Assembly (NCBI GenBank): GCA_964348725.1
Contig: CAYGDG010000001.1
Coordinates: 1,898 to 65,897, forward strand
DNA length: 64,000 nucleotides
Direction of reading: 5' to 3'
From: an uncultured Candidatus Saccharibacteria bacterium
GTDB taxonomy: Bacteria; Patescibacteriota; Minisyncoccia; Phycocordibacterales; UBA9973
The position numbers and the translations under genes were made by a program. The notes below the pieces were generated by a model. That model worked only from the letters and a program-made list of their open reading frames with translations, was not told where the DNA came from and did not search any database. Each line of letters opens with the position of its first letter. Positions within the stretch are counted from its first letter, which is position 1. Below, in pieces: positions 9,091 to 56,047 of this stretch.

Positions 9091-10086
9091 ATGCTGAACC
9101 CGAAATTAAAATTAAATCCGAAAGTATTTAATGCCGAATGCGAGCAGGTACCCATCCGCCAGGGCTTTGGGCAGGGCCTTTTGAAAGCGGGCGAGCTGGA
9201 TGAAAATGTCGTCGCTCTGTGTGCAGACCTGACCGAAAGCACAAAGATGAATTTATTTGCCGAGAAATTTCCGAAGCGCTTTGTGGAGATCGGCGTGGCA
9301 GAGCAGAACTTGGCGACGGTCGCCAGCGGCATGGCCGCGATGGGAAAAATTCCTTTCTGTTCTTCATATGCTATGTTTTCTCCTGGCAGGAATTGGGAGC
9401 AGATACGCACGACCATCGCATACAACGACCGCAAGGTCGTCATCGTCGGCTCGCACGCGGGCATTTCTGTGGGTCCCGACGGCGGTACGCACCAGGCGCT
9501 CGAAGACATGGGCCTGATGCGCCTGATTCCGAATATGGATGTCATTTCTCCGTGCGATGCGCTGGAAGCCAAACGAGCGACGCTCGCTTTAGCCAAATCA
9601 AAACGTCCGGCATACCTGCGCCTCGCTCGCGAGAAGACACCGATAATTACCACAGAAGAAACTCCGTTTGAAATAGGCAAAGCAGAAATATATTGGCTGC
9701 CGGACAGCGGTCTTGCTCATGTAGGCATCATCGCCACCGGCGCGCTTGTGCATAAGGCGCTCCTTGCCGTCAAAGAACTTGAAAATGAAATTAAAATAAA
9801 AGTATTGAACCTGCCTTCGGTAAAACCGCTTGATAGAGAAGCAGTCATTGCTCTGGCTAAAGAATGCAAAGCGATCGTGACGGTAGAAGAACATCAAAAA
9901 ATGGGTGGTATGGGTTCAGCTGTCGCTGAAGTATTGGCCCAGGAATTTCCAGTACCTATAGAATTCATCGGTGTGGCTGATCGATTCGGCCAGTCCGGAA
10001 CACCGGAAGAGCTCGTAGAAAAATACGGTATGGGAAAAGATTCTATAGTAGAAGCAGTGAGGAAAGTGTTGAAAAGAAAAAATTAA
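9091..10086 (+). CDS. tktB: Transketolase, C-terminal (pyrimidine-binding) subunit
   Basis: ORF 8995..10086. The plausible start is MLNPKLK at 9091, just after the tktA stop. FGQGLLKAGELDENVVALCADL and IGVAEQNLATVASGMA motifs. Confidence 0.85.
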   Translation: MLNPKLKLNPKVFNAECEQVPIRQGFGQGLLKAGELDENVVALCADLTESTKMNLFAEKFPKRFVEIGVAEQNLATVASGMAAMGKIPFCSSYAMFSPGRNWEQIRTTIAYNDRKVVIVGSHAGISVGPDGGTHQALEDMGLMRLIPNMDVISPCDALEAKRATLALAKSKRPAYLRLAREKTPIITTEETPFEIGKAEIYWLPDSGLAHVGIIATGALVHKALLAVKELENEIKIKVLNLPSVKPLDREAVIALAKECKAIVTVEEHQKMGGMGSAVAEVLAQEFPVPIEFIGVADRFGQSGTPEELVEKYGMGKDSIVEAVRKVLKRKN

Positions 10087-10706
10087 TTCTGACGCATTTG
10101 CTTTTTTATCTCCAATCGTTCTTTCTTTTCCTTCTGTTCATTTTCATACGATTCTCGTTCTTCGTCAGATTCATAATTTTCAGCGTACATAATCGCATTA
10201 TCAAGCTCTTTTTTGTAATGTTGTCTTATCAAGTTAATTTTAAATATCGCTTCATTTTTTGCGGCAATTTTAGCACTTAGATCTTCTTTTAGGCCTGGAA
10301 GCATGCCAGCCGTATCTATATTTTTTAGTCTCTCTAATTCCGTCTCTTCCTTTAATAAATCGTTATTTATTTTTTCTATATTTTGTTCAAACCGAGGAAT
10401 ATCCTCGATTGATTTTAAGATTGATTGCCGACTCTGCTTTTCTTTAAATTCTTCTTTGGAGAGATTGATAATTTGTTGATTGATTGTTTCTTTCACCGAT
10501 TCGTTATTAATTGTCGCACTCATTATATTTGTAAAATTTTCCTCCCCAAAAATATCTTTTAAATGCTCAAGTATGGCATTTATATCTTCCTGAGATTCTT
10601 GCCCCAAGGCATTTTTCTTGAAAAAGTTTATTTCAGATGCTGAAATCTTGTTTGACCAAAGCCCACCTTCTTTTACTTTTCTCAGAAAAAAGTCTTCTTT
10701 ATCCAT
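10083..10706 (-). CDS. Hypothetical coiled-coil protein
   Basis: 207 aa, K/E-rich with heptad-like regions. No enzymatic motif recognised. Confidence 0.4.
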   Translation of the reverse strand: MDKEDFFLRKVKEGGLWSNKISASEINFFKKNALGQESQEDINAILEHLKDIFGEENFTNIMSATINNESVKETINQQIINLSKEEFKEKQSRQSILKSIEDIPRFEQNIEKINNDLLKEETELERLKNIDTAGMLPGLKEDLSAKIAAKNEAIFKINLIRQHYKKELDNAIMYAENYESDEERESYENEQKEKKERLEIKKQMRQN

Positions 10707-31990: not shown

Positions 31991-32665
31991 ATGGAAAAAA
32001 CTAAAAACAATGGAAAGTTATTTATCAGCATCGCACTCGTTTTATTTGCAGTAGCATTTTTTATCGCAGCCAAGAGTTTTTCAGATCAAGGTGCATATGT
32101 TGAAGTAAAAGGATTGTCTGAAAAAATTGTAAAAGCAGACACCGCCATCTGGTCTATGAATTTTGAAGTTAAATCAAATAGCATAGATATGCTTTATGCA
32201 GATATTGAAAAGAATTTAACGACCATTAAAACTTTTCTCAAAGAACAAGGTTTTGAGGATAGTGAAGTGAACATAGCTCCTGCTAATATATATCAAGATA
32301 CATACAGAGAAGCTGTCTTTAGATATAATTCTATGAATCAAATTTCCGTGTATACAAACAAAGTAGATCAAGCAAAAAAGAGCTCAAATGAGACTTTGAT
32401 GCTCGTAAAAAAAGGTGTGGTGCTTACGCAAAATTCGATTTCATTTAATTTCTCAGATTTAAACAGTATCAAGCCAGAAATGCTCGCAGAAGCTATAAAA
32501 AATGCTCGTGATACAGCATCACAATTTGCAGTAAATTCTGGCTCCTCTATCGGAGGGATAGTGAGAGGAAATCAAGGTGTATTTGATATCACCGACAAAG
32601 ACCCAGGCTCTCCAGAATTCAAAAAGATTCGTCTCGTCTCCACACTTCGTTTTCTGCTTAAATAG
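31991..32665 (+). CDS. Membrane-anchored protein, possibly SIMPL/DUF541-like
   Basis: N-terminal TM plus a roughly 200-aa domain whose size and pattern (VEVKGLSEKIVKADTAIWSMNFEV...) resemble SIMPL. This is a weak call. Confidence 0.4.
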   Translation: MEKTKNNGKLFISIALVLFAVAFFIAAKSFSDQGAYVEVKGLSEKIVKADTAIWSMNFEVKSNSIDMLYADIEKNLTTIKTFLKEQGFEDSEVNIAPANIYQDTYREAVFRYNSMNQISVYTNKVDQAKKSSNETLMLVKKGVVLTQNSISFNFSDLNSIKPEMLAEAIKNARDTASQFAVNSGSSIGGIVRGNQGVFDITDKDPGSPEFKKIRLVSTLRFLLK

Positions 32666-33623: not shown

Positions 33624-33972
33624 TTTCTTCCTCAATTTCCTCCACGTCTTCCTGAATATCCTCCACATCCTCGGCGATTTCTTCCACATCTTTTTGGATT
33701 TCATCCACGTCTTCCTGAATTTCTTCTATATCTTCGGACACTTCTTCTAATTCTTTAGAGTGTTGGTTTACCGTCATCTGGATAAAAATGGAAAGATATA
33801 TGGCTTCAAGTGAAACAATCGTAGTGAGAATGAGCAGAATATCCGCCACTGCCACTCCAAAAAATCGCAATGAAAAAATACCGATAAAAAATATCGTATG
33901 GAGGGCGATGGATGCCGGCGAGCCTATGAAGCGGGTGAGCTTTTTAGAAAATTCTTCAAATTTCTTATCCAT
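33607..33972 (-). CDS. Small membrane protein (DUF1003-like core) with a C-terminal acidic tandem-repeat tail
   Basis: Two TM helices followed by SIFIQMTVNQHSKELEE. The tail is EEVSEDIEEIQEDVDEIQKDVEEIAEDVEDIQEDVEEIEEEIK, with an 8-aa periodicity. Confidence 0.4.
   Translation of the reverse strand: MDKKFEEFSKKLTRFIGSPASIALHTIFFIGIFSLRFFGVAVADILLILTTIVSLEAIYLSIFIQMTVNQHSKELEEVSEDIEEIQEDVDEIQKDVEEIAEDVEDIQEDVEEIEEEIKPAR
33620..33760. repeat. Imperfect 24-nt tandem repeat, about 5-6 units, inside a coding region
   Basis: The units ttcctccacgtcttcctgaatatc, ctccacatcctcggcgatttcttc, cacatctttttggatttcatccac and gtcttcctgaatttcttctatatc encode the acidic E-D-x-E-E-I-Q repeats of the minus-strand ORF. 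Confidence 0.6.
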
Positions 33973-33996
33973 ACAAAGTATGATATATTATATGAT

Positions 33997-35019
33997 ATGG
34001 AAACACAAACAAAAATAAAGCTCAGTGCGGGGTATTTCTTTCTTTCTTTAGGGGTATTGACGACGCTCATCGCCTCGGTGGTGTCATTTTTGAATCTTGC
34101 ATTTGAAATATTAAACAAAAAATTTCCTGATGTGCTCAATGCCATGTATCAGTACGGCTACAATACCTACCAGTTTGATTCGGCGCGCACGGCACTCGCC
34201 ACGCTCATCATCGTATTTCCAGCATTGCTTGTGCTCGTGCATTTTTGGCGCAAAGTCAGTCTTGAAAATCTTTCCGAGACGGAGCGCGTCATCCGCAAAT
34301 GGATGATATATGTCGTCCTCTTTCTTTCGGCGGCCGTCATTCTCATTGATCTCATTACGCTCGTAAAATATTTTGTCGGCGGGCAGATTACTATCCGCTT
34401 CATCCTCAAAGTGCTGGTGGCGGGTATGGCTGCAAAGATGATCATCTATTATTTCGCTGCAGATGTTTTTACCTGGCGCTGGGGAAATATCTTGCGCCGT
34501 ATCAGTGCGTGGGTGAGCCCAATCCTCGTGATTGCGCTCATCGTGTGGAGCTTCTTTATCATCGGTAGTCCGATGGACCAGCGAAAACTCCAGCTGGACC
34601 AGCGCCGTACAGATGATCTTCAAAATATACAGTGGCAGATCATCAGCTATTGGCAGCAGAAAGAAAAATTACCAGCATCTTTTGCCGATATGAAAGACCC
34701 GATCTCGAGCTACATGGTTCCTGTGGATCCAGAATTCCAGAAAGGAAATGTGTATGAATATACAAAGACGGGGAATTTATCATTTGAACTGTGTGCTACA
34801 TTCTCACTTCCGATGCCGGAAGGCTGGCAGGAATATAATTACGGCAAAGGCGGCGGCGTCATGCCGATGACGGCGGAGCGTGATGTGGCAGTATCATATC
34901 CGTATCCCGGAGGCGGCGGTATGAATGAAAGCTGGGATCACGAAGCCGGACGCACGTGCTTTGCTCGCACGATAGACCCCGAAATATATCCGCCATATCC
35001 AAAGCCGGACAAAGAGTAA
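33997..35019 (+). CDS. Polytopic membrane protein with an extracytoplasmic C-terminal domain. Hypothetical.
   Basis: ORF 33898..35019. The internal start METQTKIK at 33997 avoids overlap with the divergent gene. Four to five TM helices, then a Trp/Tyr/Cys-containing soluble domain. Confidence 0.45.
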   Translation: METQTKIKLSAGYFFLSLGVLTTLIASVVSFLNLAFEILNKKFPDVLNAMYQYGYNTYQFDSARTALATLIIVFPALLVLVHFWRKVSLENLSETERVIRKWMIYVVLFLSAAVILIDLITLVKYFVGGQITIRFILKVLVAGMAAKMIIYYFAADVFTWRWGNILRRISAWVSPILVIALIVWSFFIIGSPMDQRKLQLDQRRTDDLQNIQWQIISYWQQKEKLPASFADMKDPISSYMVPVDPEFQKGNVYEYTKTGNLSFELCATFSLPMPEGWQEYNYGKGGGVMPMTAERDVAVSYPYPGGGGMNESWDHEAGRTCFARTIDPEIYPPYPKPDKE

Positions 35020-35020
35020 T

Positions 35021-38000
35021 ATGAAAAGTTACGACCACACAAAAATAGAAAAAAAGTGGCAGAAGGAATGGGAAGCGAAAAAAATCTATACAGCCCAAAA
35101 TAGCTCCAAGCAGAAAAAGTTTTACGGGCTGATAGAATTCCCGTATCCTTCCGGCGCCGGCCTCCATGTCGGCCATATCCGTTCAAACACTGCGATGGAT
35201 ATTATCGCCCGCAAGCGCCGCATGGAAGGGCACAATGTCCTGTACCCCATCGGCTGGGATGCGTTCGGCTTACCGACAGAAAACTACGCCATCAAGACCG
35301 GCATCCAGCCGGCGAAAGTGACGAAAGATAATACGGATATGTTCCGCAAGCAATTAAAAGCGCTCGGTTTTTCTTTTGACTGGTCCCGCGAAGTGAATAC
35401 GACCGATCCCGCGTACTACAAATGGACGCAATGGATATTCCTCCAGATGTACAAAAAAGGTCTCGCGTACAAAGCGAAGACGGAAATAAACTGGTGCCCG
35501 AAGGACAAGATAGGCCTGGCAAATGAAGAAGCCGCGGGCGGCGTGTGCGAGCGCTGCGGCGGACCAACTGAGAAAAGATTGAAAGAGCAGTGGATGCTGG
35601 CTATCACGAAATATGCTGATCGTTTGGATAAAGATTTGGATGATGTAAATTATCTAGAGAAAATAAAAATCCAGCAGAGGAATTGGATAGGCCGGAGCGA
35701 GGGGAGCGAGATTGAATTTGCAATAAAGAATAATGCCGGTAATGTAATTATCGTGCATGGTTCAAATAAAGATGAATCTTCATCCAAGATAGGGAAACTT
35801 GAGAATATGCGTCATTGGAAGCCATGGATTAAAAAACAGCTTGAAAATGCCGGTTTTAGTGTTTCAAACGATCTTTATCCTGAAGATTGGAAACCTGACT
35901 ATATTGCTTGGAAAAAAGTTTTTGAAAAAAATGATATAGATGAAAATACGACACTTATTGGGCACAGTGCCGGCACCGCTTTTTTGTTGCGATGGTTGAG
36001 TGAAAATAAAAGAAAAATAAACAAGCTCATCCTTATTGCGCCTTCTTTGCTCAAATCGGAAAAGTATATCAGGACCAGCAAGCTGAAAGATTTCACTTAC
36101 GATTCATCACTGAAAAAGTATTTTAATGAAATTATTATATTCTACTCAAACAACGATCATCCGAATATGATTGCAAGTGCAAAGGAAGCTCATACTAAAC
36201 TCGGTGGTAAATTGATTCTTTTGGAAAACAGGGGACATTTTGTGCTAGAGCATATGGGTTCTGAAGAATTTCCTGAGCTTTTAGCTGAAATAGTTCCAAA
36301 AATAAAAGTATTTACCACACGCGCTGATACGCTTTTTGGCGCTACCTATGTAGTGCTCGCGCCGGAGCATGAGCTCGTGCAAAAATTGAAACCTGAAATC
36401 AAGAATTTTTCGGAAGTAGAAAAATATTTAAGTGAAGTAAAAAAGAAAGATGAATTAGAACGCACTGCGGAAAATAAAGAAAAGACGGGCGTGGAATTGA
36501 AAGGCATCAAAGCAATCAATCCGGCAAACGGCGAAGAAATCCCCGTATGGATTGCGGACTATGTGCTCGCGAGTTACGGCACCGGCGCAGTGATGGCCGT
36601 GCCCGCGCATGACGAGCGCGATTTTGAGTTCGCGAATCGATATGATCTCTTAATCAAACAGACTGTCGTTTCTAAAAATTTACTCAAATCTATAGTCGTA
36701 GCGCCTACTTTAGAAAATGAACTTGCTTTTAAAACAGAATTACGGAAGTTAAATATCAGTTTTGATTTATCAATAAGTGCTATCAGTAAACGCGAGCATA
36801 TTAGGGTAACTTTAAATAAAGAAAATCTTCACGATTTTATATCTCTTGTTCAAAAATATATCAAAAAAGACAATTGGGTTGAGATACTGGGAAATGAGAA
36901 CATTATTGTACTTAAAAAAGAAATTCAATCAGATTTCTTTAATCATGCAACAGAGTGGTTTGTAAAATTTAGAGAATGGGAGCCTTTTGTCAGAGATCAG
37001 AAAAATCTTTGGTGTATGTTGGCTAAGAACTCTTTTTTAAATGAATTAGTGTGCTATAAAAATGATGGCATTTTAGTACATTCAGGAAAATTTAACGGCC
37101 TCTCTTCAGAAGAAGCAAGAAAAAAAATAACTGAAGCTGTTGGCGGAAAGATGGTAACGAAATTCAAGCTCCGCGACTGGGTTTTTTCCCGCCAGAGATA
37201 TTGGGGTGAGCCGATACCGCTTATCTTCTGTGATGATTGCGGCGAAGTGCCTGTGCCGGAAAAAGACTTGCCGGTAGTCCTGCCGAAAGTGAAATCATAC
37301 GCGCCGACGGATACAGGTGAGAGTCCTCTGGCGAATATTTCCGCCTGGGTAAATGTGAAGTGCCCGAAGTGCAAAGGTAAAGCAAAAAGAGAGACGGACA
37401 CGATGCCGAACTGGGCGGGAAGCTCCTGGTATTTCTTGCGCTATGTTGACCCGAAGAATAAAAAAGAATTTGCCTCCAAAAAATCTCTGGAATACTGGAT
37501 GGACAAAAAGTCTGGTGGCATTGATTGGTACAACGGCGGCATGGAGCACACGACTTTACATCTTTTATACTCGCGCTTCTGGCATAAATTTTTATTTGAC
37601 TTAAAGCTTGTGCCGACGAGCGAGCCGTACATGAAGCGCACTTCGCATGGCATGATCCTGGCTGAAGGAGGGGACAAGATGTCAAAGTCTAAAGGCAATG
37701 TGGTAAATCCGGACGACATTGTGAAGACATACGGAGCGGATACTTTGCGCTTGTACGAAATGTTCATGGGCCCGTTTGACCAGGCAGTGGTATGGAGCAC
37801 GGAAAGCATGATCGGCCCGCGGAGATTTATAGAAAAAGTTTTTAGGATCGCCCAGAAGCCGAGCCTGCATGCTTTTGAGAAGGAGTGGCCTCGCACCAGC
37901 GAGGAGAACCGAGCGACTGAGCAAAAGCATCAGGCGAGGCTTCTCCATAAAACTATTAAAAAAGTTTCTGAAGATATTGAGACTATGAGTTTTAATACAT

Positions 38001-38386
38001 GCGTATCTTCCATGATGATTCTCGCCGGAGAAATGGAAAAAGCGGAATCTGTTTCCAGGGATGATTTCAAAAAGTTTTTGCAAATCCTTGCGCCATTTGC
38101 GCCGCATATTGCGGAAGAATTGTGGCGCGGCATGGGGGAGAAGAAATCAATTCACTTATCTGCATGGCCGGAATATGATGCGAAGCTCATCGTGGATGAT
38201 GAAATAAAAATAGCTGTGCAGGTGAATGGCAAGGTCAGGGGAGAGATGCTCATCGCGCCGGATACTGCCGAGGCTGATGTGCGGAGCATGGCCTTGCACA
38301 TGCCAAAAGTCATTGAATTTTTAGGGGGTGAGGAGCCGAAGAAAGTGATTTATGTTAAAAACAGACTTATTAACATTGTTAGGTAA
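35021..38386 (+). CDS. leuS: Leucyl-tRNA synthetase carrying two large in-frame insertions
   Basis: N-terminus FPYPSGAGLHVGHIRSNTAMDIIARKRRMEGHNVLYPIGWDAFGLPTENYA (HIGH region), the editing domain TTRADTLFGATY, and KMSKSKGNVV. 1121 aa, against roughly 800-870 aa for typical bacterial LeuRS. Confidence 0.9.
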   Translation: MKSYDHTKIEKKWQKEWEAKKIYTAQNSSKQKKFYGLIEFPYPSGAGLHVGHIRSNTAMDIIARKRRMEGHNVLYPIGWDAFGLPTENYAIKTGIQPAKVTKDNTDMFRKQLKALGFSFDWSREVNTTDPAYYKWTQWIFLQMYKKGLAYKAKTEINWCPKDKIGLANEEAAGGVCERCGGPTEKRLKEQWMLAITKYADRLDKDLDDVNYLEKIKIQQRNWIGRSEGSEIEFAIKNNAGNVIIVHGSNKDESSSKIGKLENMRHWKPWIKKQLENAGFSVSNDLYPEDWKPDYIAWKKVFEKNDIDENTTLIGHSAGTAFLLRWLSENKRKINKLILIAPSLLKSEKYIRTSKLKDFTYDSSLKKYFNEIIIFYSNNDHPNMIASAKEAHTKLGGKLILLENRGHFVLEHMGSEEFPELLAEIVPKIKVFTTRADTLFGATYVVLAPEHELVQKLKPEIKNFSEVEKYLSEVKKKDELERTAENKEKTGVELKGIKAINPANGEEIPVWIADYVLASYGTGAVMAVPAHDERDFEFANRYDLLIKQTVVSKNLLKSIVVAPTLENELAFKTELRKLNISFDLSISAISKREHIRVTLNKENLHDFISLVQKYIKKDNWVEILGNENIIVLKKEIQSDFFNHATEWFVKFREWEPFVRDQKNLWCMLAKNSFLNELVCYKNDGILVHSGKFNGLSSEEARKKITEAVGGKMVTKFKLRDWVFSRQRYWGEPIPLIFCDDCGEVPVPEKDLPVVLPKVKSYAPTDTGESPLANISAWVNVKCPKCKGKAKRETDTMPNWAGSSWYFLRYVDPKNKKEFASKKSLEYWMDKKSGGIDWYNGGMEHTTLHLLYSRFWHKFLFDLKLVPTSEPYMKRTSHGMILAEGGDKMSKSKGNVVNPDDIVKTYGADTLRLYEMFMGPFDQAVVWSTESMIGPRRFIEKVFRIAQKPSLHAFEKEWPRTSEENRATEQKHQARLLHKTIKKVSEDIETMSFNTCVSSMMILAGEMEKAESVSRDDFKKFLQILAPFAPHIAEELWRGMGEKKSIHLSAWPEYDAKLIVDDEIKIAVQVNGKVRGEMLIAPDTAEADVRSMALHMPKVIEFLGGEEPKKVIYVKNRLINIVR

Positions 38387-38432: not shown

Positions 38433-39665
38433 ATGCATTTAATCAGACACATCATACACAAGCATTGGAAAACAGCTTTCTTTCTGCTTTTTTTCATTTT
38501 AGTCGGTACTAATCTACATAGTATCGCCAGCGATAGTCCCGGATCGGACGGTTTTTATGCGGGTGAAACGCTCAATCCGTCGTGTACTCCGGGATCCGCG
38601 AATTGCTCGGTGAGTTCTGTATGGACCGCATCGGGAACAAGTGCTTATTACAGTGCTGGAAATGTAGGAATAGGTACTACAACTCCTACAAAATTATTGG
38701 ATGTAAATGGCACTTCTATTTTTAGAGGATCTACTACTTTTCAAGACATAAACCCTGAACTTATAACGACAACTACTAATGGCTACGTAGCTACTTCATA
38801 CGATTCCACCTCTTCAGGTGGCGGAGCACAAAATGTATTCCGTAGAGCAAATGGAACAGAAGCTACACCCACCGCAATTACAAATGGAATGACACTCGGT
38901 TCGTTTTCTTTCCGAGGACATACAGGCAGTGCTTTTACAGGAAGTAAGGGATATTTTGAAGTAACAGCGACAGAAAACTGGAGTCCATCTGCAAATGGCA
39001 CTGATATGACGTGGGCGATAACGCCAAATGGTTCTACAACCCTAGACTATGCTATGACATTATCGCAAGCTGGGTATTTGGGTATAGGCACGAGAACACC
39101 AGAAGCTAAACTACACGTTTCAGGTGCAGATGCGACTATCGGTGCTTTTGTAGAAAATACTTCTTCAACTTCAGCCAGATACCCGCTTACTTATATCGCA
39201 AACTATGCAGGTGCAACCACAGGACATCCATTGACTGTGATGGCAAATGCCAGAGGCACGAAAGCTTCTCCGACAGCTAGTCAATCGGGAGATTCTTTTG
39301 GAATGTATGTTTTCAAAGGATATGATGGTGCTGCTTTTATAGACGGCGCAAGGATAGCAGCTTTTGCTCCGGCGACGTGGAGCGTAGGAAGCACTCCGAC
39401 AGATTTGAGATTTTATACTACAGATACAAGTGGAACTTATGCAGAAAGAATGAGGATTATGGAGAATGGAAATTTGGGAATTGGTACTACTGCACCATCT
39501 ACCAAATTACATGTAGTGGGCTCTGGCGCCACTGCCACTACTCCAGCCGTACGAATAGAAAATCTTCCGACGTCCGCGCCATCGGGTACGAATGAAGGCA
39601 TCGTCTGCGTAGATGATGCCGGCGCGTTATGGAATGATTCTGACGGTACGGAAGATTGTATGTAG
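38433..39665 (+). CDS. Secreted surface protein with three phage-tail-fibre-like G(N/Y)(V/L)GIGT repeats
   Basis: Signal/TM N-terminus. Repeats GNVGIGTTTPTKLLDVNGT, GYLGIGTRTPEAKLHVSGA and GNLGIGTTAPSTKLHVVGSG. C-terminus VCVDDAGALWNDSDGTEDCM. Confidence 0.5.
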   Translation: MHLIRHIIHKHWKTAFFLLFFILVGTNLHSIASDSPGSDGFYAGETLNPSCTPGSANCSVSSVWTASGTSAYYSAGNVGIGTTTPTKLLDVNGTSIFRGSTTFQDINPELITTTTNGYVATSYDSTSSGGGAQNVFRRANGTEATPTAITNGMTLGSFSFRGHTGSAFTGSKGYFEVTATENWSPSANGTDMTWAITPNGSTTLDYAMTLSQAGYLGIGTRTPEAKLHVSGADATIGAFVENTSSTSARYPLTYIANYAGATTGHPLTVMANARGTKASPTASQSGDSFGMYVFKGYDGAAFIDGARIAAFAPATWSVGSTPTDLRFYTTDTSGTYAERMRIMENGNLGIGTTAPSTKLHVVGSGATATTPAVRIENLPTSAPSGTNEGIVCVDDAGALWNDSDGTEDCM

Positions 39666-39666
39666 T

Positions 39667-40869
39667 ATGAAAAAAATATATTTTAAAAAAAATATTCTCC
39701 TCATACATTCACTCGCAATTATTTTTGCATTGGTTGCACCGTATGCATATGCTCCACTGAAAGTCTCTGCTGCTGACATGGTAATCTCATCTACCGTCGT
39801 GACGCATCCTGAATCGTCAGATTTATATCCCGGTGAAGATGACGCGGTCATGGCATTACTAGTAATACATACGACCGGCGCCGATAATCCGCTGCATTTG
39901 ACCAACCTAGTCCCTGATTTGGGAGATATGACCCCGACTGCATCTGCAAGTAATACATCGGCTATTCAAATATTTTACACGACTACCTCTACATTTGATA
40001 CAAATACTCAATTTAGTTTTGATTTATCTAATTTGAATGGCGGTGGATCGGAATCATTTGACGGTGATCAAGTATTGCAATCAGGAGCAAATTATTTTTG
40101 GTTTGTATATGATCTGAATGAAAACCTTGATTGCGACAATACGATGGATATTAGTATATTTAATTATACTATTGATTATAGTTATATATTTAGTGATGGT
40201 GTTGAATTTGATGGTAATCCAGTAGGAAATAGAGATATAACTTCATACACAAATTTGACTCCCGCCAATGCATCTTCTTCTCCTTATCAAGGCGTACTCT
40301 TGAACTGGACCAGAAATCCTCGGTATACGGGAGGTTTTGATGTATATTTGGACGGTGCGCTTAAAATGAATAATATAGATCAAGAATACGCGTATCTCCC
40401 GTCGTATGATAGCTCCGGAGCTCATACATTTGAATTAAGAAATTCAACCAATGGCATTTCTTGCGATACAAGAAATATTACACTCGGTACCAGGCCTTTT
40501 ATCTCACAGATAAATACGATCGTCTCGCTCGGTGATCCTTTGATACCTAAAAAAAATACGAGCACCGCTTTTACACTCAGCGTATGGGGCGCCGGATTTA
40601 CATCGTCTTCCAAGGTATGGTTCAACGGTGTTGAAAAAAGCATCACATGGAATGGCGCTACCGCAGGACATTCTCCAAACTTGCAAGCATCTATTTTAGC
40701 AGCTGATATTCCAAATACAGGCTACTATTCTGTCTATATTATAAATCCCACAAATCAAGTATCCAATCCTATGATATTCGCGGCGCATTCGGCGATGCTG
40801 TGCAAAGATACGCTCGGTAATCTATGGAAAGATACAAGCAATATTCCGGATTGCGACGAGACGAATTAG
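39667..40869 (+). CDS. Secreted hypothetical protein. Its C-terminal Cys motif is shared with the upstream gene.
   Basis: ORF 39613..40869. Start MKKIYFKK at 39667, just after the upstream stop. Signal peptide LIHSLAIIFALVAPYAYA. C-terminus MLCKDTLGNLWKDTSNIPDCDETN. Confidence 0.45.
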   Translation: MKKIYFKKNILLIHSLAIIFALVAPYAYAPLKVSAADMVISSTVVTHPESSDLYPGEDDAVMALLVIHTTGADNPLHLTNLVPDLGDMTPTASASNTSAIQIFYTTTSTFDTNTQFSFDLSNLNGGGSESFDGDQVLQSGANYFWFVYDLNENLDCDNTMDISIFNYTIDYSYIFSDGVEFDGNPVGNRDITSYTNLTPANASSSPYQGVLLNWTRNPRYTGGFDVYLDGALKMNNIDQEYAYLPSYDSSGAHTFELRNSTNGISCDTRNITLGTRPFISQINTIVSLGDPLIPKKNTSTAFTLSVWGAGFTSSSKVWFNGVEKSITWNGATAGHSPNLQASILAADIPNTGYYSVYIINPTNQVSNPMIFAAHSAMLCKDTLGNLWKDTSNIPDCDETN

Positions 40870-55540: not shown

Positions 55541-56047
55541 TTATTCCTCTATATTTTTAGCTCGTTTCAAGAAAATTAAATCCCTTTTTACGATAAATTT
55601 GCCGCCATATATGGTCGGGCTATCTTTACTCAACTTTTTAATGGCTTCATGTAAAGTCATCCATTTTATTTGAAAACCCGCATCCTTTTCAGATTTAGTA
55701 AAACTATGATTGCCATATTTAGACACTTTTGCCATATAGCAATAAGATAATTGTATCTTTTTAAATTTATCCCTATATTCAATTATCATACCGACTTCCT
55801 TGCCAATTTTTGCAGTACATCCTGTTTCCTCCTTTATTTCTCTGGCTAGGGCAGTTTTAATATCTTCATTATTTTCTACTCCGCCGCCGGGTATTTTATG
55901 ATATCCGTCTCTAGAAACAAAGAGCATTGCAACTTTGTTTTCCTTATCAAAAAGTATCGCTCGTGCGGCTTTTCTCACAGTGTATGTGACACTTTTTTGA
56001 TTCTTAACACCAATATCTTTATTATATATTTCTTTCAGTAATTCCAT
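55541..56047 (-). CDS. NUDIX hydrolase
   Basis: Nudix box GGGVENNEDIKTALAREIKEETGC; 168 aa. Confidence 0.8.
   Translation of the reverse strand: MELLKEIYNKDIGVKNQKSVTYTVRKAARAILFDKENKVAMLFVSRDGYHKIPGGGVENNEDIKTALAREIKEETGCTAKIGKEVGMIIEYRDKFKKIQLSYCYMAKVSKYGNHSFTKSEKDAGFQIKWMTLHEAIKKLSKDSPTIYGGKFIVKRDLIFLKRAKNIEE

What the first reader, a model, noticed from the sequence alone, without database searches (positions are those of the whole stretch)
35715..36300. Complete YdeN/RBBP9-type serine-hydrolase domain inserted in-frame in leucyl-tRNA synthetase
Between the conserved NWIGRSEGSEIEF segment and the start of the editing domain (IKVFTTRADTLFGATY), canonical LeuRS has about 8 residues. Here there are roughly 195 residues with the full alpha/beta-hydrolase signature of the YdeN/RBBP9 family: VIIVHGSNKDES (oxyanion region), LIGHSAGTAFLLRWL (GxSxG nucleophile elbow), IIIFYSNNDHPNM (catalytic Asp) and ENRGHFVLEH (catalytic His). 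The inserted DNA is markedly more AT-rich than the rest of leuS, and the reading frame is preserved. A catalytically plausible esterase at the entrance to the editing (CP1) domain could add a second hydrolytic or proof-reading activity, or be a domesticated mobile insertion. I am not aware of such a fusion being described.
Basis: partly seen in the sequence, partly recalled or inferred. Interest (0 to 1): 0.7.

Follow-up and report, generated by a model that had tools for sequence, protein, structure and literature searches.

The report
Serine hydrolase nested inside leucyl-tRNA synthetase
A complete, apparently active small esterase/aminopeptidase-type enzyme sits in frame inside the proofreading domain of leucyl-tRNA synthetase in this ultra-small (Parcubacteria-type) bacterium, and it turns out to be one case of a widespread, repeatedly re-invented and apparently undescribed partnership between this hydrolase and leucyl-tRNA synthetase in CPR bacteria and DPANN archaea.

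Summary
leuS (35021-38386, 1121 aa) carries a 194-residue segment (aa 234-427) where relatives have 8. It scores 56 bits on PF06821 (cut-off 22). Its model (pLDDT 94) superposes on YdeN and RBBP9 (TM about 0.8). Ser316, Asp379 and His406 are in place. It is neither an assembly chimera nor an intein.

The fusion is not unique. Free-standing 187-190 aa homologues (up to 68% identical) are common in CPR bacteria and DPANN archaea. Of the 80 closest copies in GTDB genomes, 22 are nested in bacterial-type LeuRS at three sites. Nine more sit beside leuS on the same strand, four with overlapping stop and start codons. Nested, adjacent and unlinked copies interleave by similarity, so the link was made repeatedly. 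A syntenic Parcubacteria genome shares this insert, which is as conserved as the LeuRS core.

These LeuRS proteins also host NUDIX, Ham1 and HAD domains, and the query has a second, orphan insert.

The best reading is an autonomous second hydrolytic site tied to LeuRS. Its substrate and any role in proofreading are untested. I found no description in the searchable literature.

The parts
35021..38386 (+). leuS, bacterial-type leucyl-tRNA synthetase, 1121 aa, single uninterrupted reading frame
   Evidence: ORF. TIGR00396 scores 965 bits in three stretches. The protein aligns with T. thermophilus LeuRS 1H3N in four blocks. The identical protein is found on an independent Logan assembly.
35021..35719 (+). 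N-terminal part of the catalytic core (aa 1-233), with the HIGH motif HVGH at 35165-35176
   Evidence: PF00133 covers aa 12-216. Query 1-237 aligns with Tt 1-238. Motif position.
35720..36301 (+). Nested RBBP9/YdeN-type serine hydrolase domain with short linkers (aa 234-427), referred to here as site A
   Evidence: PF06821 scores 56.4 bits. The AF2 model has pLDDT 94.2 and pTM 0.91. Foldseek gives 1UXO TM 0.79/0.83 and 7OEX TM 0.80/0.85. Identity to free-standing 187-192 aa proteins is 60-68%.
35756..35761 (+). His246-Gly247 of the VIIVHGS strand-loop (oxyanion region)
   Evidence: HG is present in 188 of 192 free-standing family members and in all 33 embedded members that have residues there. 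Position.
35960..35974 (+). Nucleophile elbow GHSAG, with Ser316 at 35966-35968
   Evidence: Ser is invariant in 192 of 192 free-standing and 33 of 33 embedded domains. It aligns with the GHS motifs of YdeN and RBBP9.
36155..36157 (+). Asp379, the putative catalytic acid (SNNDH)
   Evidence: The column is D or E in 183 of 192 free-standing members. It aligns within one residue of RBBP9 Asp137/138.
36236..36238 (+). His406, the catalytic histidine (NRGHF)
   Evidence: Invariant in 192 of 192 free-standing and 33 of 33 embedded domains. It aligns with the GHF motifs of YdeN and RBBP9.
36302..36667 (+). CP1 editing-domain core (aa 428-549), with the threonine-rich peptide TTRADT (36314-36331) and HDERD (36608-36622)
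   Evidence: PF13603 covers aa 427-553. Query 427-549 aligns with Tt 242-362, which places T432/T433/T437 on Tt T247/T248/T252 and D533 on Tt D347.
36668..37051 (+). Second in-frame insert (aa 550-677, about 115 residues more than T. thermophilus has), very AT-rich and of unknown fold, referred to here as site B
   Evidence: GC is 0.29 and GC3 is 0.24. There is no Pfam hit. The only homologue found is P0391, 55% identical, a LeuRS fragment. AF2 pLDDT is 32-60. In 68 of the 119 nearest relatives this site holds an insert of about 155 aa, which is a NUDIX domain in most of them.
37052..38383 (+). C-terminal part of the catalytic core, the anticodon-binding domain and the C-terminal domain (aa 678-1121), with KMSKS at 37676-37690
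   Evidence: TIGR00396 covers aa 677-1120. PF08264 covers aa 974-1083. Query 678-1120 aligns with Tt 376-875, but the Tt leucine-specific domain has no counterpart.

Best explanation
Shown. The segment is a whole RBBP9/YdeN-family serine hydrolase of about 186 residues. That equals an entire free-standing protein of this family, from about residue 3 to the C-terminus. It is nested at the tip of the first beta-hairpin of the CP1 editing domain, five residues before the threonine-rich editing peptide. The HIGH and KMSKS motifs and the CP1 editing motifs of LeuRS are unchanged. The insert has been inherited and kept under purifying selection as strong as that on the LeuRS core. It is one instance of a recurrent physical link between this hydrolase subfamily and bacterial-type LeuRS in CPR bacteria and DPANN archaea. 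That link takes the form of nesting at three LeuRS sites or of translationally coupled neighbouring genes on either side of leuS.

Inferred. The domain folds on its own and works as a second, independent hydrolytic active site (Ser316-Asp379-His406) on the LeuRS polypeptide. RBBP9 cleaves bonds at the carboxyl group of hydrophobic amino acids that have a free alpha-amine, Leu/Ile included. By analogy, the most likely chemistry is hydrolysis of aminoacyl ester or amide bonds. The specific and repeated pairing with LeuRS suggests a task tied to leucylation. That task could be releasing leucine from scavenged peptides or esters for an amino-acid-auxotrophic cell. It could instead be clearing aminoacyl esters or adenylates that escape CP1. 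Which of the two applies is not resolved.
For: Identity and fold:
- PF06821 scores 56.4 bits against a cut-off of 22.
- The AF2 model has pLDDT 94.2.
- The best PDB fold matches are YdeN 1UXO and RBBP9 7OEX/2QS9/9FCR, with TM 0.76-0.85.

Catalytic residues: Ser and His are invariant, and the acid is D/E, in both free-standing and embedded copies.

Not an artefact:
- The identical protein is on an independent Logan assembly.
- The same insert occurs at the same site, in the same DUF5671-leuS synteny, in Parcubacteria GW2011_GWF2.

Selection, query against that genome: the insert is 78.6% identical (dN 0.131), the LeuRS N-core 79% (dN 0.169) and the neighbouring gene 56% (dN 0.39). Synonymous sites are saturated.

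Source pool: free-standing 187-192 aa homologues reach 68% identity.

Recurrence:
- The nearest neighbours of almost every embedded copy are free-standing copies.
- The other LeuRS found with this subfamily at site A share only 42-57% core identity with the query.
- The query's closest LeuRS relatives (79% core identity) have either no insert or a different hydrolase subtype.

Linkage to leuS, among the 80 closest GTDB loci:
- 26 copies lie in long ORFs, and 22 of those ORFs are bacterial-type LeuRS, with the domain at site A, B or C.
- Nine more copies flank leuS on the same strand. In four of these loci the stop and start codons overlap.
- No other neighbour family recurs in more than 3 of the 49 unlinked loci.
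- Nested-A, nested-B and adjacent forms interleave by similarity.

Chemistry precedent: RBBP9 needs a free alpha-amine and traps Leu/Ile, Phe, Tyr and Trp (PMC8866121).

Position: the insert lies between Tt residues 238 and 242, just before T247/T248/T252.
Against: - There are no biochemical data for any member of this subfamily.
- The loop that holds the alpha-amine-binding Glu108 of RBBP9 is not conserved here, so substrate specificity cannot be transferred.
- The CP1 editing motifs are intact in nearly all hydrolase-bearing LeuRS for which that region is held, so no editing gap is evident.
- The same LeuRS clade also hosts NUDIX, Ham1, HAD, a DUF559 endonuclease-like domain and orphan inserts.
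- The hydrolase is occasionally nested in UvrB, EngA, a GT2 glycosyltransferase, YdjC and Fmt, or fused to NUDIX or Ham1.
- Those two points fit a general 'permissive host, promiscuous guest' picture at least as well as a leucine-specific function.
- About 60% of the closest copies are not linked to leuS within 4 kb.
- The tools returned no coordinates, so whether the hydrolase pocket faces the CP1 or synthetic site is unknown. In the full-length model the insert has only moderate confidence.
Confidence: 0.5

Rival explanations
1. Passenger or 'piggyback' domain. The hydrolase is a functional housekeeping enzyme whose chemistry has nothing to do with leucylation. In ultra-small genomes, small single-domain hydrolases (YdeN-type, NUDIX, Ham1, HAD) become fused to, nested in or co-transcribed with an essential, constitutively expressed gene. 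The surface loops around LeuRS CP1 happen to tolerate insertions. An existing operon neighbourhood with leuS then biases later rearrangements towards nesting in leuS.
For: - LeuRS of this clade hosts several unrelated hydrolase families, up to three in one protein. L080 carries NUDIX, Ser_hydrolase and HAD_2. L003 carries a Ham1-like domain and the YdeN-type domain. L022 carries two alpha/beta hydrolases and a NUDIX domain. Sixty-eight of the 119 nearest relatives carry an insert of about 155 aa at site B, a NUDIX domain in most.
- The query's own site-B insert is an orphan with no recognisable function.
- The YdeN-type domain also occurs inside UvrB, EngA, GT2, YdjC and Fmt, and fused to NUDIX or Ham1.
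- Free-standing copies sit beside NUDIX and HAD genes in L012, L033 and L057.
- CP1 is intact, so there is no evident need for extra editing.
Against: - Host choice is strongly skewed. Twenty-two of the 26 long-ORF copies in the GTDB set, and 13 of about 20 in the representative search, are in LeuRS. None is in the structurally similar IleRS or ValRS.
- The other class-I synthetase in this window has no insert.
- The pairing was re-made in at least five arrangements: upstream, downstream, and sites A, B and C.
- Two divergent YdeN-like subfamilies both occupy site A.
Confidence: 0.4
2. Non-catalytic insertion. The hydrolase fold has been co-opted as a structural, regulatory or binding module, for example for tRNA or a partner protein, and no longer acts as an enzyme.
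For: Lineage-specific insertions in synthetases are often non-catalytic (general knowledge). The query's other insert, at site B, has no catalytic signature.
Against: - Ser, His, the acid and the HG oxyanion dipeptide are all retained in the query and in 33 of 33 embedded copies.
- The query keeps every invariant family position.
- dN is as low as in the LeuRS core.
Confidence: 0.05
3. Artefact. The segment is a chimeric assembly, a mis-joined contig, or an intein or mobile element mis-read as part of the protein.
For: There is a sharp compositional step inside the gene. The related assembly L083 has a frameshift within the insert.
Against: - The identical 1121-aa protein was recovered by a second assembler, on Logan contig ERR3094292_15916.
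- The same architecture occurs in an unrelated study's genome with conserved synteny, and in dozens of other LeuRS.
- The reading frame is preserved across both junctions.
- There is no Hint, intein or LAGLIDADG hit, and the junction residues are not intein-like (AGN|VIIV and IVPK|IKVF).
- The junctions carry no terminal inverted repeats or target duplications.
Confidence: 0.02

Closest known systems
RBBP9 / YdeN serine hydrolases (Pfam PF06821; PDB 1UXO, 2QS9, 7OEX)
   Same: Same minimal alpha/beta-hydrolase fold of about 190 residues (TM 0.76-0.85). Same order of HG, GHSxG, acid and GH(F/Y) motifs, and the same HWxPW motif. Ser-Asp-His triad.
   Different: Only 20-24% identical to the solved members. 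It belongs to a subfamily found almost only in CPR bacteria and DPANN archaea, with an extra loop after the HG strand (aa 250-263) and an invariant C-terminal EFPELL helix. Here it is nested inside another enzyme. The residues that bind the substrate's alpha-amine in RBBP9 are not recognisably conserved.
Canonical bacterial LeuRS with a CP1 editing domain (T. thermophilus 1H3N/2BYT, E. coli 4AQ7)
   Same: Same domain order, HIGH and KMSKS motifs, threonine-rich peptide and conserved editing Asp. The whole protein aligns block by block.
   Different: There are 194 residues where T. thermophilus has 3 (site A) and 128 where it has 13 (site B). The leucine-specific domain is missing.
Synthetases with appended or fused enzyme domains (IleRS with a GNAT domain, NCBIfam NF040702; LysX = LysRS-MprF; free-standing trans-editing factors such as AlaX and YbaK)
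   Same: A second catalytic module is physically tied to an aminoacyl-tRNA synthetase. Like AlaX and YbaK, the module exists both fused and as a separate protein (for NF040702; PMC9437257 via for LysX; the trans-editing factors are from general knowledge).
   Different: This module is an alpha/beta-hydrolase, a fold that, as far as I know, has no described role in tRNA editing. It is nested within CP1 rather than appended at an end. It has been inserted repeatedly at several sites, together with NUDIX, Ham1 and HAD domains.
Inteins and other in-frame selfish insertions in essential genes
   Same: An in-frame, compositionally distinct insertion in a conserved essential gene, occurring sporadically among close relatives.
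   Different: There is no Hint fold, no splicing junction residues and no homing endonuclease. The insert is a conserved enzyme that is predicted to stay in the mature protein.

Membership tests
RBBP9/YdeN serine hydrolase family (PF06821) | Profile-HMM match above the curated threshold | tested here: met
   56.4 bits and E 4.7e-15 for the excised segment, 53.6 bits within the full protein; gathering score 22.
RBBP9/YdeN serine hydrolase family (PF06821) | Minimal alpha/beta-hydrolase fold superposable on solved members | tested here: met
   The AF2 model has pLDDT 94.2 and pTM 0.91. Foldseek ranks 1UXO, 7OEX, 2QS9 and 9FCR first, with TM 0.76-0.85 and rmsd 2.2-3.1 A.
RBBP9/YdeN serine hydrolase family (PF06821) | Ser (GxSxG) - Asp - His catalytic triad in the canonical order | tested here: met
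   Ser316, Asp379 and His406. Ser and His are invariant and the acid is D/E across 225 aligned domains. The alignment of the acid to RBBP9 Asp138 is uncertain by one residue.
RBBP9/YdeN serine hydrolase family (PF06821) | Hydrolase activity, and substrate class (aminoacyl amide or ester with a free alpha-amine, as for RBBP9) | not testable with these tools
   Only the RBBP9 precedent is available (PMC8866121). The loop equivalent to the one holding RBBP9 Glu108 is variable in this subfamily.
Bacterial-type leucyl-tRNA synthetase (TIGR00396) | Equivalog HMM above cut-off, with HIGH and KMSKS motifs | tested here: met
   965 bits against a cut-off of 548. HVGH is at aa 49-52 and KMSKS at aa 886-890.
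Bacterial-type leucyl-tRNA synthetase (TIGR00396) | CP1 editing domain with the threonine-rich peptide and the conserved Asp | tested here: met
   PF13603 scores 199 bits. TTRADT at aa 432-437 and HDERD at aa 530-534 align with Tt T247/T248/T252 and D347.
Intein | Hint domain; Cys/Ser at the N-terminal junction; His-Asn followed by Cys/Ser/Thr at the C-terminal junction | tested here: not met
   No Hint, intein or LAGLIDADG family appears in the Pfam scan of the whole protein. The junctions read ...NNAGN|VIIVHG... and ...EIVPK|IKVF....
Transposable or other mobile DNA element | Terminal inverted repeats, target-site duplication, and a transposase or endonuclease gene | tested here: not met
   No repeat flanks the junctions; only short chance matches were found. 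The insert encodes nothing but the hydrolase.
tRNA trans/cis-editing modules (AlaX, YbaK/ProX, Dtd, CP1) | Homology to a known editing fold, or demonstrated aa-tRNA deacylase activity | tested here: not met
   The fold is an alpha/beta-hydrolase, not any known editing fold. Deacylase activity cannot be tested here. The claim that it works like an editing factor therefore rests only on genomic linkage to leuS.

The most novel reading that the evidence does not exclude
The CPR/DPANN YdeN-type hydrolase is a dedicated LeuRS accessory enzyme. It would be a previously unrecognised, alpha/beta-hydrolase-based class of synthetase-associated aminoacyl-bond hydrolase, acting either in cis (nested) or in trans (operon partner). 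It would either proofread products that CP1 misses or feed leucine to LeuRS from scavenged peptides. More broadly, LeuRS in these ultra-small organisms would serve as a modular scaffold that assembles a set of small-molecule hydrolases (YdeN-type, NUDIX, Ham1, HAD) into one multifunctional protein.
Probability: 0.3. Interest if true: 0.88.

Novelty: new variant of a known kind. Interest (0 to 1): 0.72.

Why it matters
Aminoacyl-tRNA synthetases are among the most conserved proteins, and the ways they maintain accuracy are thought to be well catalogued. Here a full, apparently active serine hydrolase has been placed, many times independently, in or next to one particular synthetase. This happens across two radiations of ultra-small, host-dependent microbes, one bacterial and one archaeal.

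If the pairing is functional, it points to a new kind of synthetase-linked hydrolysis, either quality control or amino-acid supply, in organisms that cannot make their own amino acids. It would also give the first functional handle on a hydrolase family whose bacterial and archaeal members have no known role.

If the pairing is only 'piggybacking', it is still a clear natural example of repeated domain nesting. An essential enzyme would be serving as a carrier for housekeeping enzymes in streamlined genomes, and the case would give a map of insertion-tolerant sites in LeuRS that protein engineers could use.

The claim can be tested directly with one recombinant protein and one point mutant (S316A).

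Tried and rejected
- A combined alignment of LeuRS relatives and free-standing hydrolases (A1), meant to give the full-length prediction a deep alignment over the insert. MAFFT spread the short proteins over the wrong columns, so it was discarded. Separate alignments A2 and A3 were used instead.
- Intein or mobile-element reading. There are no Hint or endonuclease hits and no flanking repeats.
- Recent horizontal acquisition as the explanation for the low GC3. The insert is shared with a relative that has diverged to synonymous-site saturation, so this reading is rejected and the compositional contrast stays unexplained.
- The hydrolase compensating for a degenerate CP1. The editing motifs are intact in nearly all hydrolase-bearing LeuRS checked where the region is held.
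- The query's site-B insert as a decayed NUDIX domain. It has no Pfam hit, no phmmer similarity to the NUDIX inserts of relatives and no Nudix box.
- A search for other conserved neighbours of unlinked hydrolase genes. None recurs in more than 3 of 49 loci.
- A copy of the hydrolase elsewhere in the 64-kb window. None was found.
- Source names and accessions for the query protein. None are held.
- Ten literature searches for LeuRS or aaRS combined with CPR, Patescibacteria, DPANN, Nudix or domain insertion. No description of this architecture turned up. One search failed on syntax.
- Whether the insert packs against CP1. This could not be answered because the structure tool returns no coordinates or PAE.
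Full report
**1. What is in the window**

A single ORF on the + strand, 35021-38386, encodes 1121 residues. It is a bacterial-type leucyl-tRNA synthetase. TIGR00396 scores 965 bits against a cut-off of 548, matched in three separate stretches. Pfam finds the class-I catalytic domain, the LeuRS editing domain and the anticodon-binding domain.

Typical close relatives are 770-830 aa, so about 300 residues are extra. They lie in two blocks of low G+C, at 35600-36300 and 36600-37100. The ORFs on the opposite strand are short overlaps with no support. The upstream gene (DUF5671, 33898-35019) ends one base before the leuS start.

The rest of the window is ordinary CPR-type content: DnaE, MurJ, LepA, another class-I synthetase, an ABC transporter, five tRNAs and many hypothetical genes.

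**2.

Between SEIEF (aa 229-233) and IKVFTT (aa 428-433) the query has 194 residues. The insert-free relative P0079 has eight, and T. thermophilus LeuRS has three.

- The excised segment hits PF06821 Ser_hydrolase at 56.4 bits, gathering score 22.
- By sequence it also finds YdeN (1UXO, E 3.6e-6) and RBBP9 (E about 1e-3) in the PDB.
- With an alignment of 114 free-standing homologues, AlphaFold2 gives a confident model (pLDDT 94.2, pTM 0.91).
- The best structural matches of that model in the PDB are YdeN and RBBP9, with TM 0.76-0.85 and rmsd 2.2-3.1 A.
- In an alignment of 226 domains of this subfamily, the Ser and His columns are invariant and the acid column is D or E.
- The AT-richness is real. 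GC3 is 0.32 in the insert against 0.61 and 0.54 in the flanking core, within the lowest 9% of 120-codon windows of the other genes.

**3. It is not an artefact, an intein or a transposon**

- The identical 1121-aa protein is encoded on a contig from a different assembler (Logan, run ERR3094292) as well as on the 174-kb NCBI/ENA contig.
- Parcubacteria bacterium GW2011_GWF2 (GCA_000993105.1) has the same gene order, DUF5671 then leuS. It carries the same hydrolase at the same place, 78.6% identical. In that assembly the reading frame is broken once inside a loop of the insert, and the contig ends within the insert.
- No Hint or endonuclease family is found. The junction residues are not intein-like. 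No repeats flank the segment.

**4. Where the insert sits in LeuRS**

Alignment with T. thermophilus LeuRS (1H3N) maps query 1-237 to Tt 1-238 and query 427-549 to Tt 242-362. The hydrolase therefore replaces the three-residue turn of the first hairpin of CP1. That is five residues before the threonine-rich peptide: query T432/T433/T437 correspond to Tt T247/T248/T252. From established knowledge of LeuRS, this peptide lines the editing pocket.

The second insert (aa 550-677, nt 36668-37051) lies 15 residues after the conserved editing Asp (query D533, Tt D347). Both editing motifs, HIGH and KMSKS are intact. The leucine-specific domain of T. thermophilus has no counterpart.

The full-length model (pLDDT 77, pTM 0.71) predicts the LeuRS core well. 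It predicts the hydrolase moderately, because the LeuRS-only alignment is thin there. The second insert is predicted poorly, at pLDDT 32-60. The tool returns no coordinates, so the packing of the insert against CP1 could not be examined.

**5. Where the insert came from**

The segment is 60-68% identical to many free-standing proteins of 187-192 residues. The insert corresponds to such a protein from about its third residue to its C-terminus. Where the sources name these proteins, they call them RBBP9/YdeN-family or alpha/beta hydrolases of Patescibacteria, Nomurabacteria, Nanoarchaeota, Woesearchaeota and Pacearchaeota.

A scan of one genome per GTDB species returned 80 loci. Almost all are from CPR bacteria or DPANN archaea, and a few carry labels that look like mis-binned MAGs.

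**6. The fusion is recurrent, and LeuRS is the preferred partner**

In an exhaustive search of 1.84 billion representative proteins, about 20 of the best 150 hits are long proteins with the domain embedded. Pfam shows what those hosts are:
- 13 are LeuRS, with the domain at site A, at site B after the editing core, or further on in the protein.
- The rest are UvrB, the GTPase EngA, a GT2 glycosyltransferase and YdjC, plus a fusion to Ham1 and a tandem hydrolase.
- An Fmt fragment with the domain was seen earlier.

In the GTDB set, 26 of 80 copies lie in long ORFs. Twenty-two of those ORFs are bacterial-type LeuRS: 17 with the domain at site A, 4 at site B and 1 at a third site inside the zinc-binding region.

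Nine further copies are separate genes immediately next to leuS on the same strand. In L007, L029 and L069 the hydrolase start codon overlaps the leuS stop. In L045 the hydrolase stop overlaps the leuS start. All nine are DPANN genomes.

So 31 of 80 copies are physically tied to leuS. Among the 49 unlinked loci, no neighbour family recurs in more than three.

**7. Independent events, not one old fusion**

- The nearest relatives of almost every embedded copy are free-standing or leuS-adjacent copies rather than other embedded ones. The query's insert is 68% identical to free-standing proteins but only 40-43% identical to the other site-A inserts found.
- Those other LeuRS proteins with this subfamily at site A share only 42-57% core identity with the query.
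- The query's closest LeuRS relatives (79% core identity) carry either no insert (P0003) or a different, more canonical YdeN-like subtype at the same site (P0002).
- In the GTDB set, nested-A, nested-B and adjacent forms interleave: query (A) with L003 (B) at 64%, L053 (A) with L029 (adjacent) at 69%, and L046 (A) with L041 (B) at 65%.

**8. The insert is under selection**

Against the GW2011_GWF2 relative, the insert has 78.6% amino-acid identity and dN 0.131. The LeuRS N-core has 79% and dN 0.169. The neighbouring DUF5671 gene has 56% and dN 0.39. Synonymous differences are saturated, with pS above 0.77.

The insert therefore predates the split of these two organisms and has been conserved as tightly as the synthetase itself. 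This also means the low GC3 is not a sign of recent arrival. That contrast remains unexplained.

**9. LeuRS as a host for other domains**

- Among the 119 nearest LeuRS relatives, 68 have an insert of about 155 residues at site B. In most it is a NUDIX domain.
- Twelve have an insert of more than 100 residues at site A: eight carry alpha/beta hydrolases and four carry Ham1-like domains.
- One (P0010) adds a DUF559 endonuclease-like domain.
- A Saccharibacteria LeuRS (L080) carries NUDIX, the YdeN-type hydrolase and a HAD phosphatase together.
- L003 carries a Ham1-like domain at site A and the YdeN type at site B. L022 carries two tandem alpha/beta hydrolases plus a NUDIX domain.
- The hydrolase is also found fused to NUDIX (L064) and to Ham1 (P0374), and sits next to NUDIX and HAD genes in L012, L033 and L057.
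- The query's own site-B insert has no family and a single homologue, in another LeuRS fragment.

**10. How it most likely works**

Shown: the domain is complete, folds like YdeN and RBBP9, keeps the triad, is selected, and leaves the LeuRS active-site motifs untouched.

Inferred: it is an autonomous second hydrolytic site on the LeuRS polypeptide.

For chemistry, the only characterised relative is human RBBP9. It is an aminopeptidase that needs a free alpha-amine. When its catalytic serine is replaced, it traps single hydrophobic amino acids, Leu/Ile included. Its authors note that it may cleave amide, ester or thioester bonds to those residues (PMC8866121). That is the same class of bond as in aminoacyl-tRNA and in peptides that a scavenging, amino-acid-auxotrophic cell must break down.

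The repeated and specific linkage to leuS argues for a task connected with leucylation. I put that at about 0.5.

The main rival, at about 0.4, is that LeuRS is simply a permissive, always-expressed carrier for small housekeeping hydrolases. The NUDIX, Ham1, HAD and orphan inserts, and the occasional other hosts, favour this view. The near-exclusive choice of LeuRS, with no case in IleRS or ValRS and none in the window's other class-I synthetase, counts against it.

CP1 motifs are intact in nearly all hydrolase-bearing LeuRS where that region is held, so the domain is not a replacement for lost editing. The loop that binds the alpha-amine in RBBP9 is not conserved, so specificity cannot be inferred.

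**11. Comparison with what is known, and novelty**

Membership of PF06821 and of bacterial LeuRS passes every test that could be run. Intein and mobile-element membership fail.

Synthetases with extra catalytic modules are known. Examples are IleRS with a GNAT domain in NCBIfam and LysX (PMC9437257). Editing factors that exist both fused and free are also known (general knowledge). An alpha/beta-hydrolase nested in CP1, re-inserted repeatedly at several sites and alternating with an operon arrangement, is a new variant of that theme.

Ten full-text searches found no description of it. No paper in the library contains both 'LeuRS' and 'Patescibacteria'. The proteins themselves are in public databases with automatic domain hits, so the novelty lies in recognition and interpretation, not in the sequence.

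Noticed in passing
window 36668-37051 (aa 550-677 of LeuS): A second in-frame insert, even more AT-rich (GC 0.29, GC3 0.24), lies 15 residues after the conserved editing Asp. It has no Pfam family, AF2 pLDDT of 32-60, and only one homologue in 5.8 billion proteins (P0391, 55% identical, itself a LeuRS fragment).
   Followed up: partly
P0004-P0120, site B of LeuRS: Sixty-eight of the 119 nearest LeuRS relatives carry an insert of about 155 residues at the same site B. In most it is a NUDIX hydrolase domain (PF00293), and 53 have a strict Nudix box. It appears to be the commonest LeuRS decoration in Paceibacteria.
   Followed up: partly
L080:2174-6325 (Saccharibacteria MAG, CAYOTK010000003.1): A 1384-aa LeuRS carries three nested hydrolase domains: NUDIX (aa 403-527), the YdeN-type Ser_hydrolase (aa 636-793) and HAD_2 (aa 854-1009). 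The last two lie inside the zinc-binding region of the catalytic core.
   Followed up: partly
P0046, P0049, P0054, P0118; L003:2324-5929: Ham1/ITPase-like domains occupy LeuRS site A in several CPR and DPANN LeuRS. P0049 (1392 aa) combines a Ham1-like domain at site A, NUDIX at site B and the YdeN type at a third site. L003 combines a Ham1-like domain at A with the YdeN type at B.
   Followed up: partly
P0010 (1352 aa): This LeuRS has, at site A, an alpha/beta hydrolase followed by a DUF559/Vsr-like endonuclease domain (PF04480, PF18741) flanked by low-complexity linkers. It is the only insert seen with a nuclease that could hint at mobility.
   Followed up: no
P0255, P0269, P0249, P0308, P0184: The same YdeN-type domain is nested in other proteins: UvrB (between helicase domains), EngA/Der (between the two GTPase domains), a GT2 glycosyltransferase, YdjC, and after an Fmt N-terminal domain.
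   Followed up: partly
L004, L007, L009, L010, L011, L029, L045, L051, L069 (DPANN MAGs): Woesearchaeota, Pacearchaeota and Nanoarchaeia genomes encode a bacterial-type LeuRS (about 40% identical to CPR LeuRS). The free-standing hydrolase gene lies directly upstream or downstream of it, and in four loci the stop and start codons overlap.
   Followed up: yes
L083:3235-4372 (Parcubacteria GW2011_GWF2, LBVM01000021.1): The closest relative of the query's nested hydrolase has a frameshift inside the hydrolase's first loop, which splits leuS into two called genes. The contig ends within the insert. This is probably an assembly error, but a real disruption cannot be excluded.
   Followed up: partly
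L002:135-707 (JGI 3300045377, Ga0490019_064260): The only homologue of the query's site-B insert is a LeuRS reading frame that stops just after that insert. It is followed by a convergent thymidylate synthase gene. It may be a split LeuRS, a pseudogene or a chimeric short contig.
   Followed up: no
L012:2144-4570; L033:3386-4570; L057:1462-2558; L064:132-1150: Free-standing YdeN-type genes sit directly next to HAD-like and NUDIX genes, and L064 is a YdeN-NUDIX fusion. These are the same hydrolase families that are nested together in LeuRS, which suggests a recurring 'small hydrolase' module.
   Followed up: no
L034 and L054 (Patescibacteria, Saccharibacteria): These variants have an N-terminal signal or transmembrane segment, a Pro-rich region, a second transmembrane helix and a coiled coil, followed by the YdeN-type domain. 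They look like membrane-anchored forms.
   Followed up: no
window 37676-37690 region (aa 880-890): The query LeuRS, like its CPR relatives, lacks the leucine-specific domain that precedes KMSKS in T. thermophilus (about Tt 592-636).
   Followed up: no
window 10083-10706, 31991-32665, 38433-40869, 55541-56047: Whole genes have GC3 of 0.28-0.34 in a window whose genes range up to 0.70. Codon composition is strongly heterogeneous across this genome, which complicates any reading of low GC as recent transfer.
   Followed up: no
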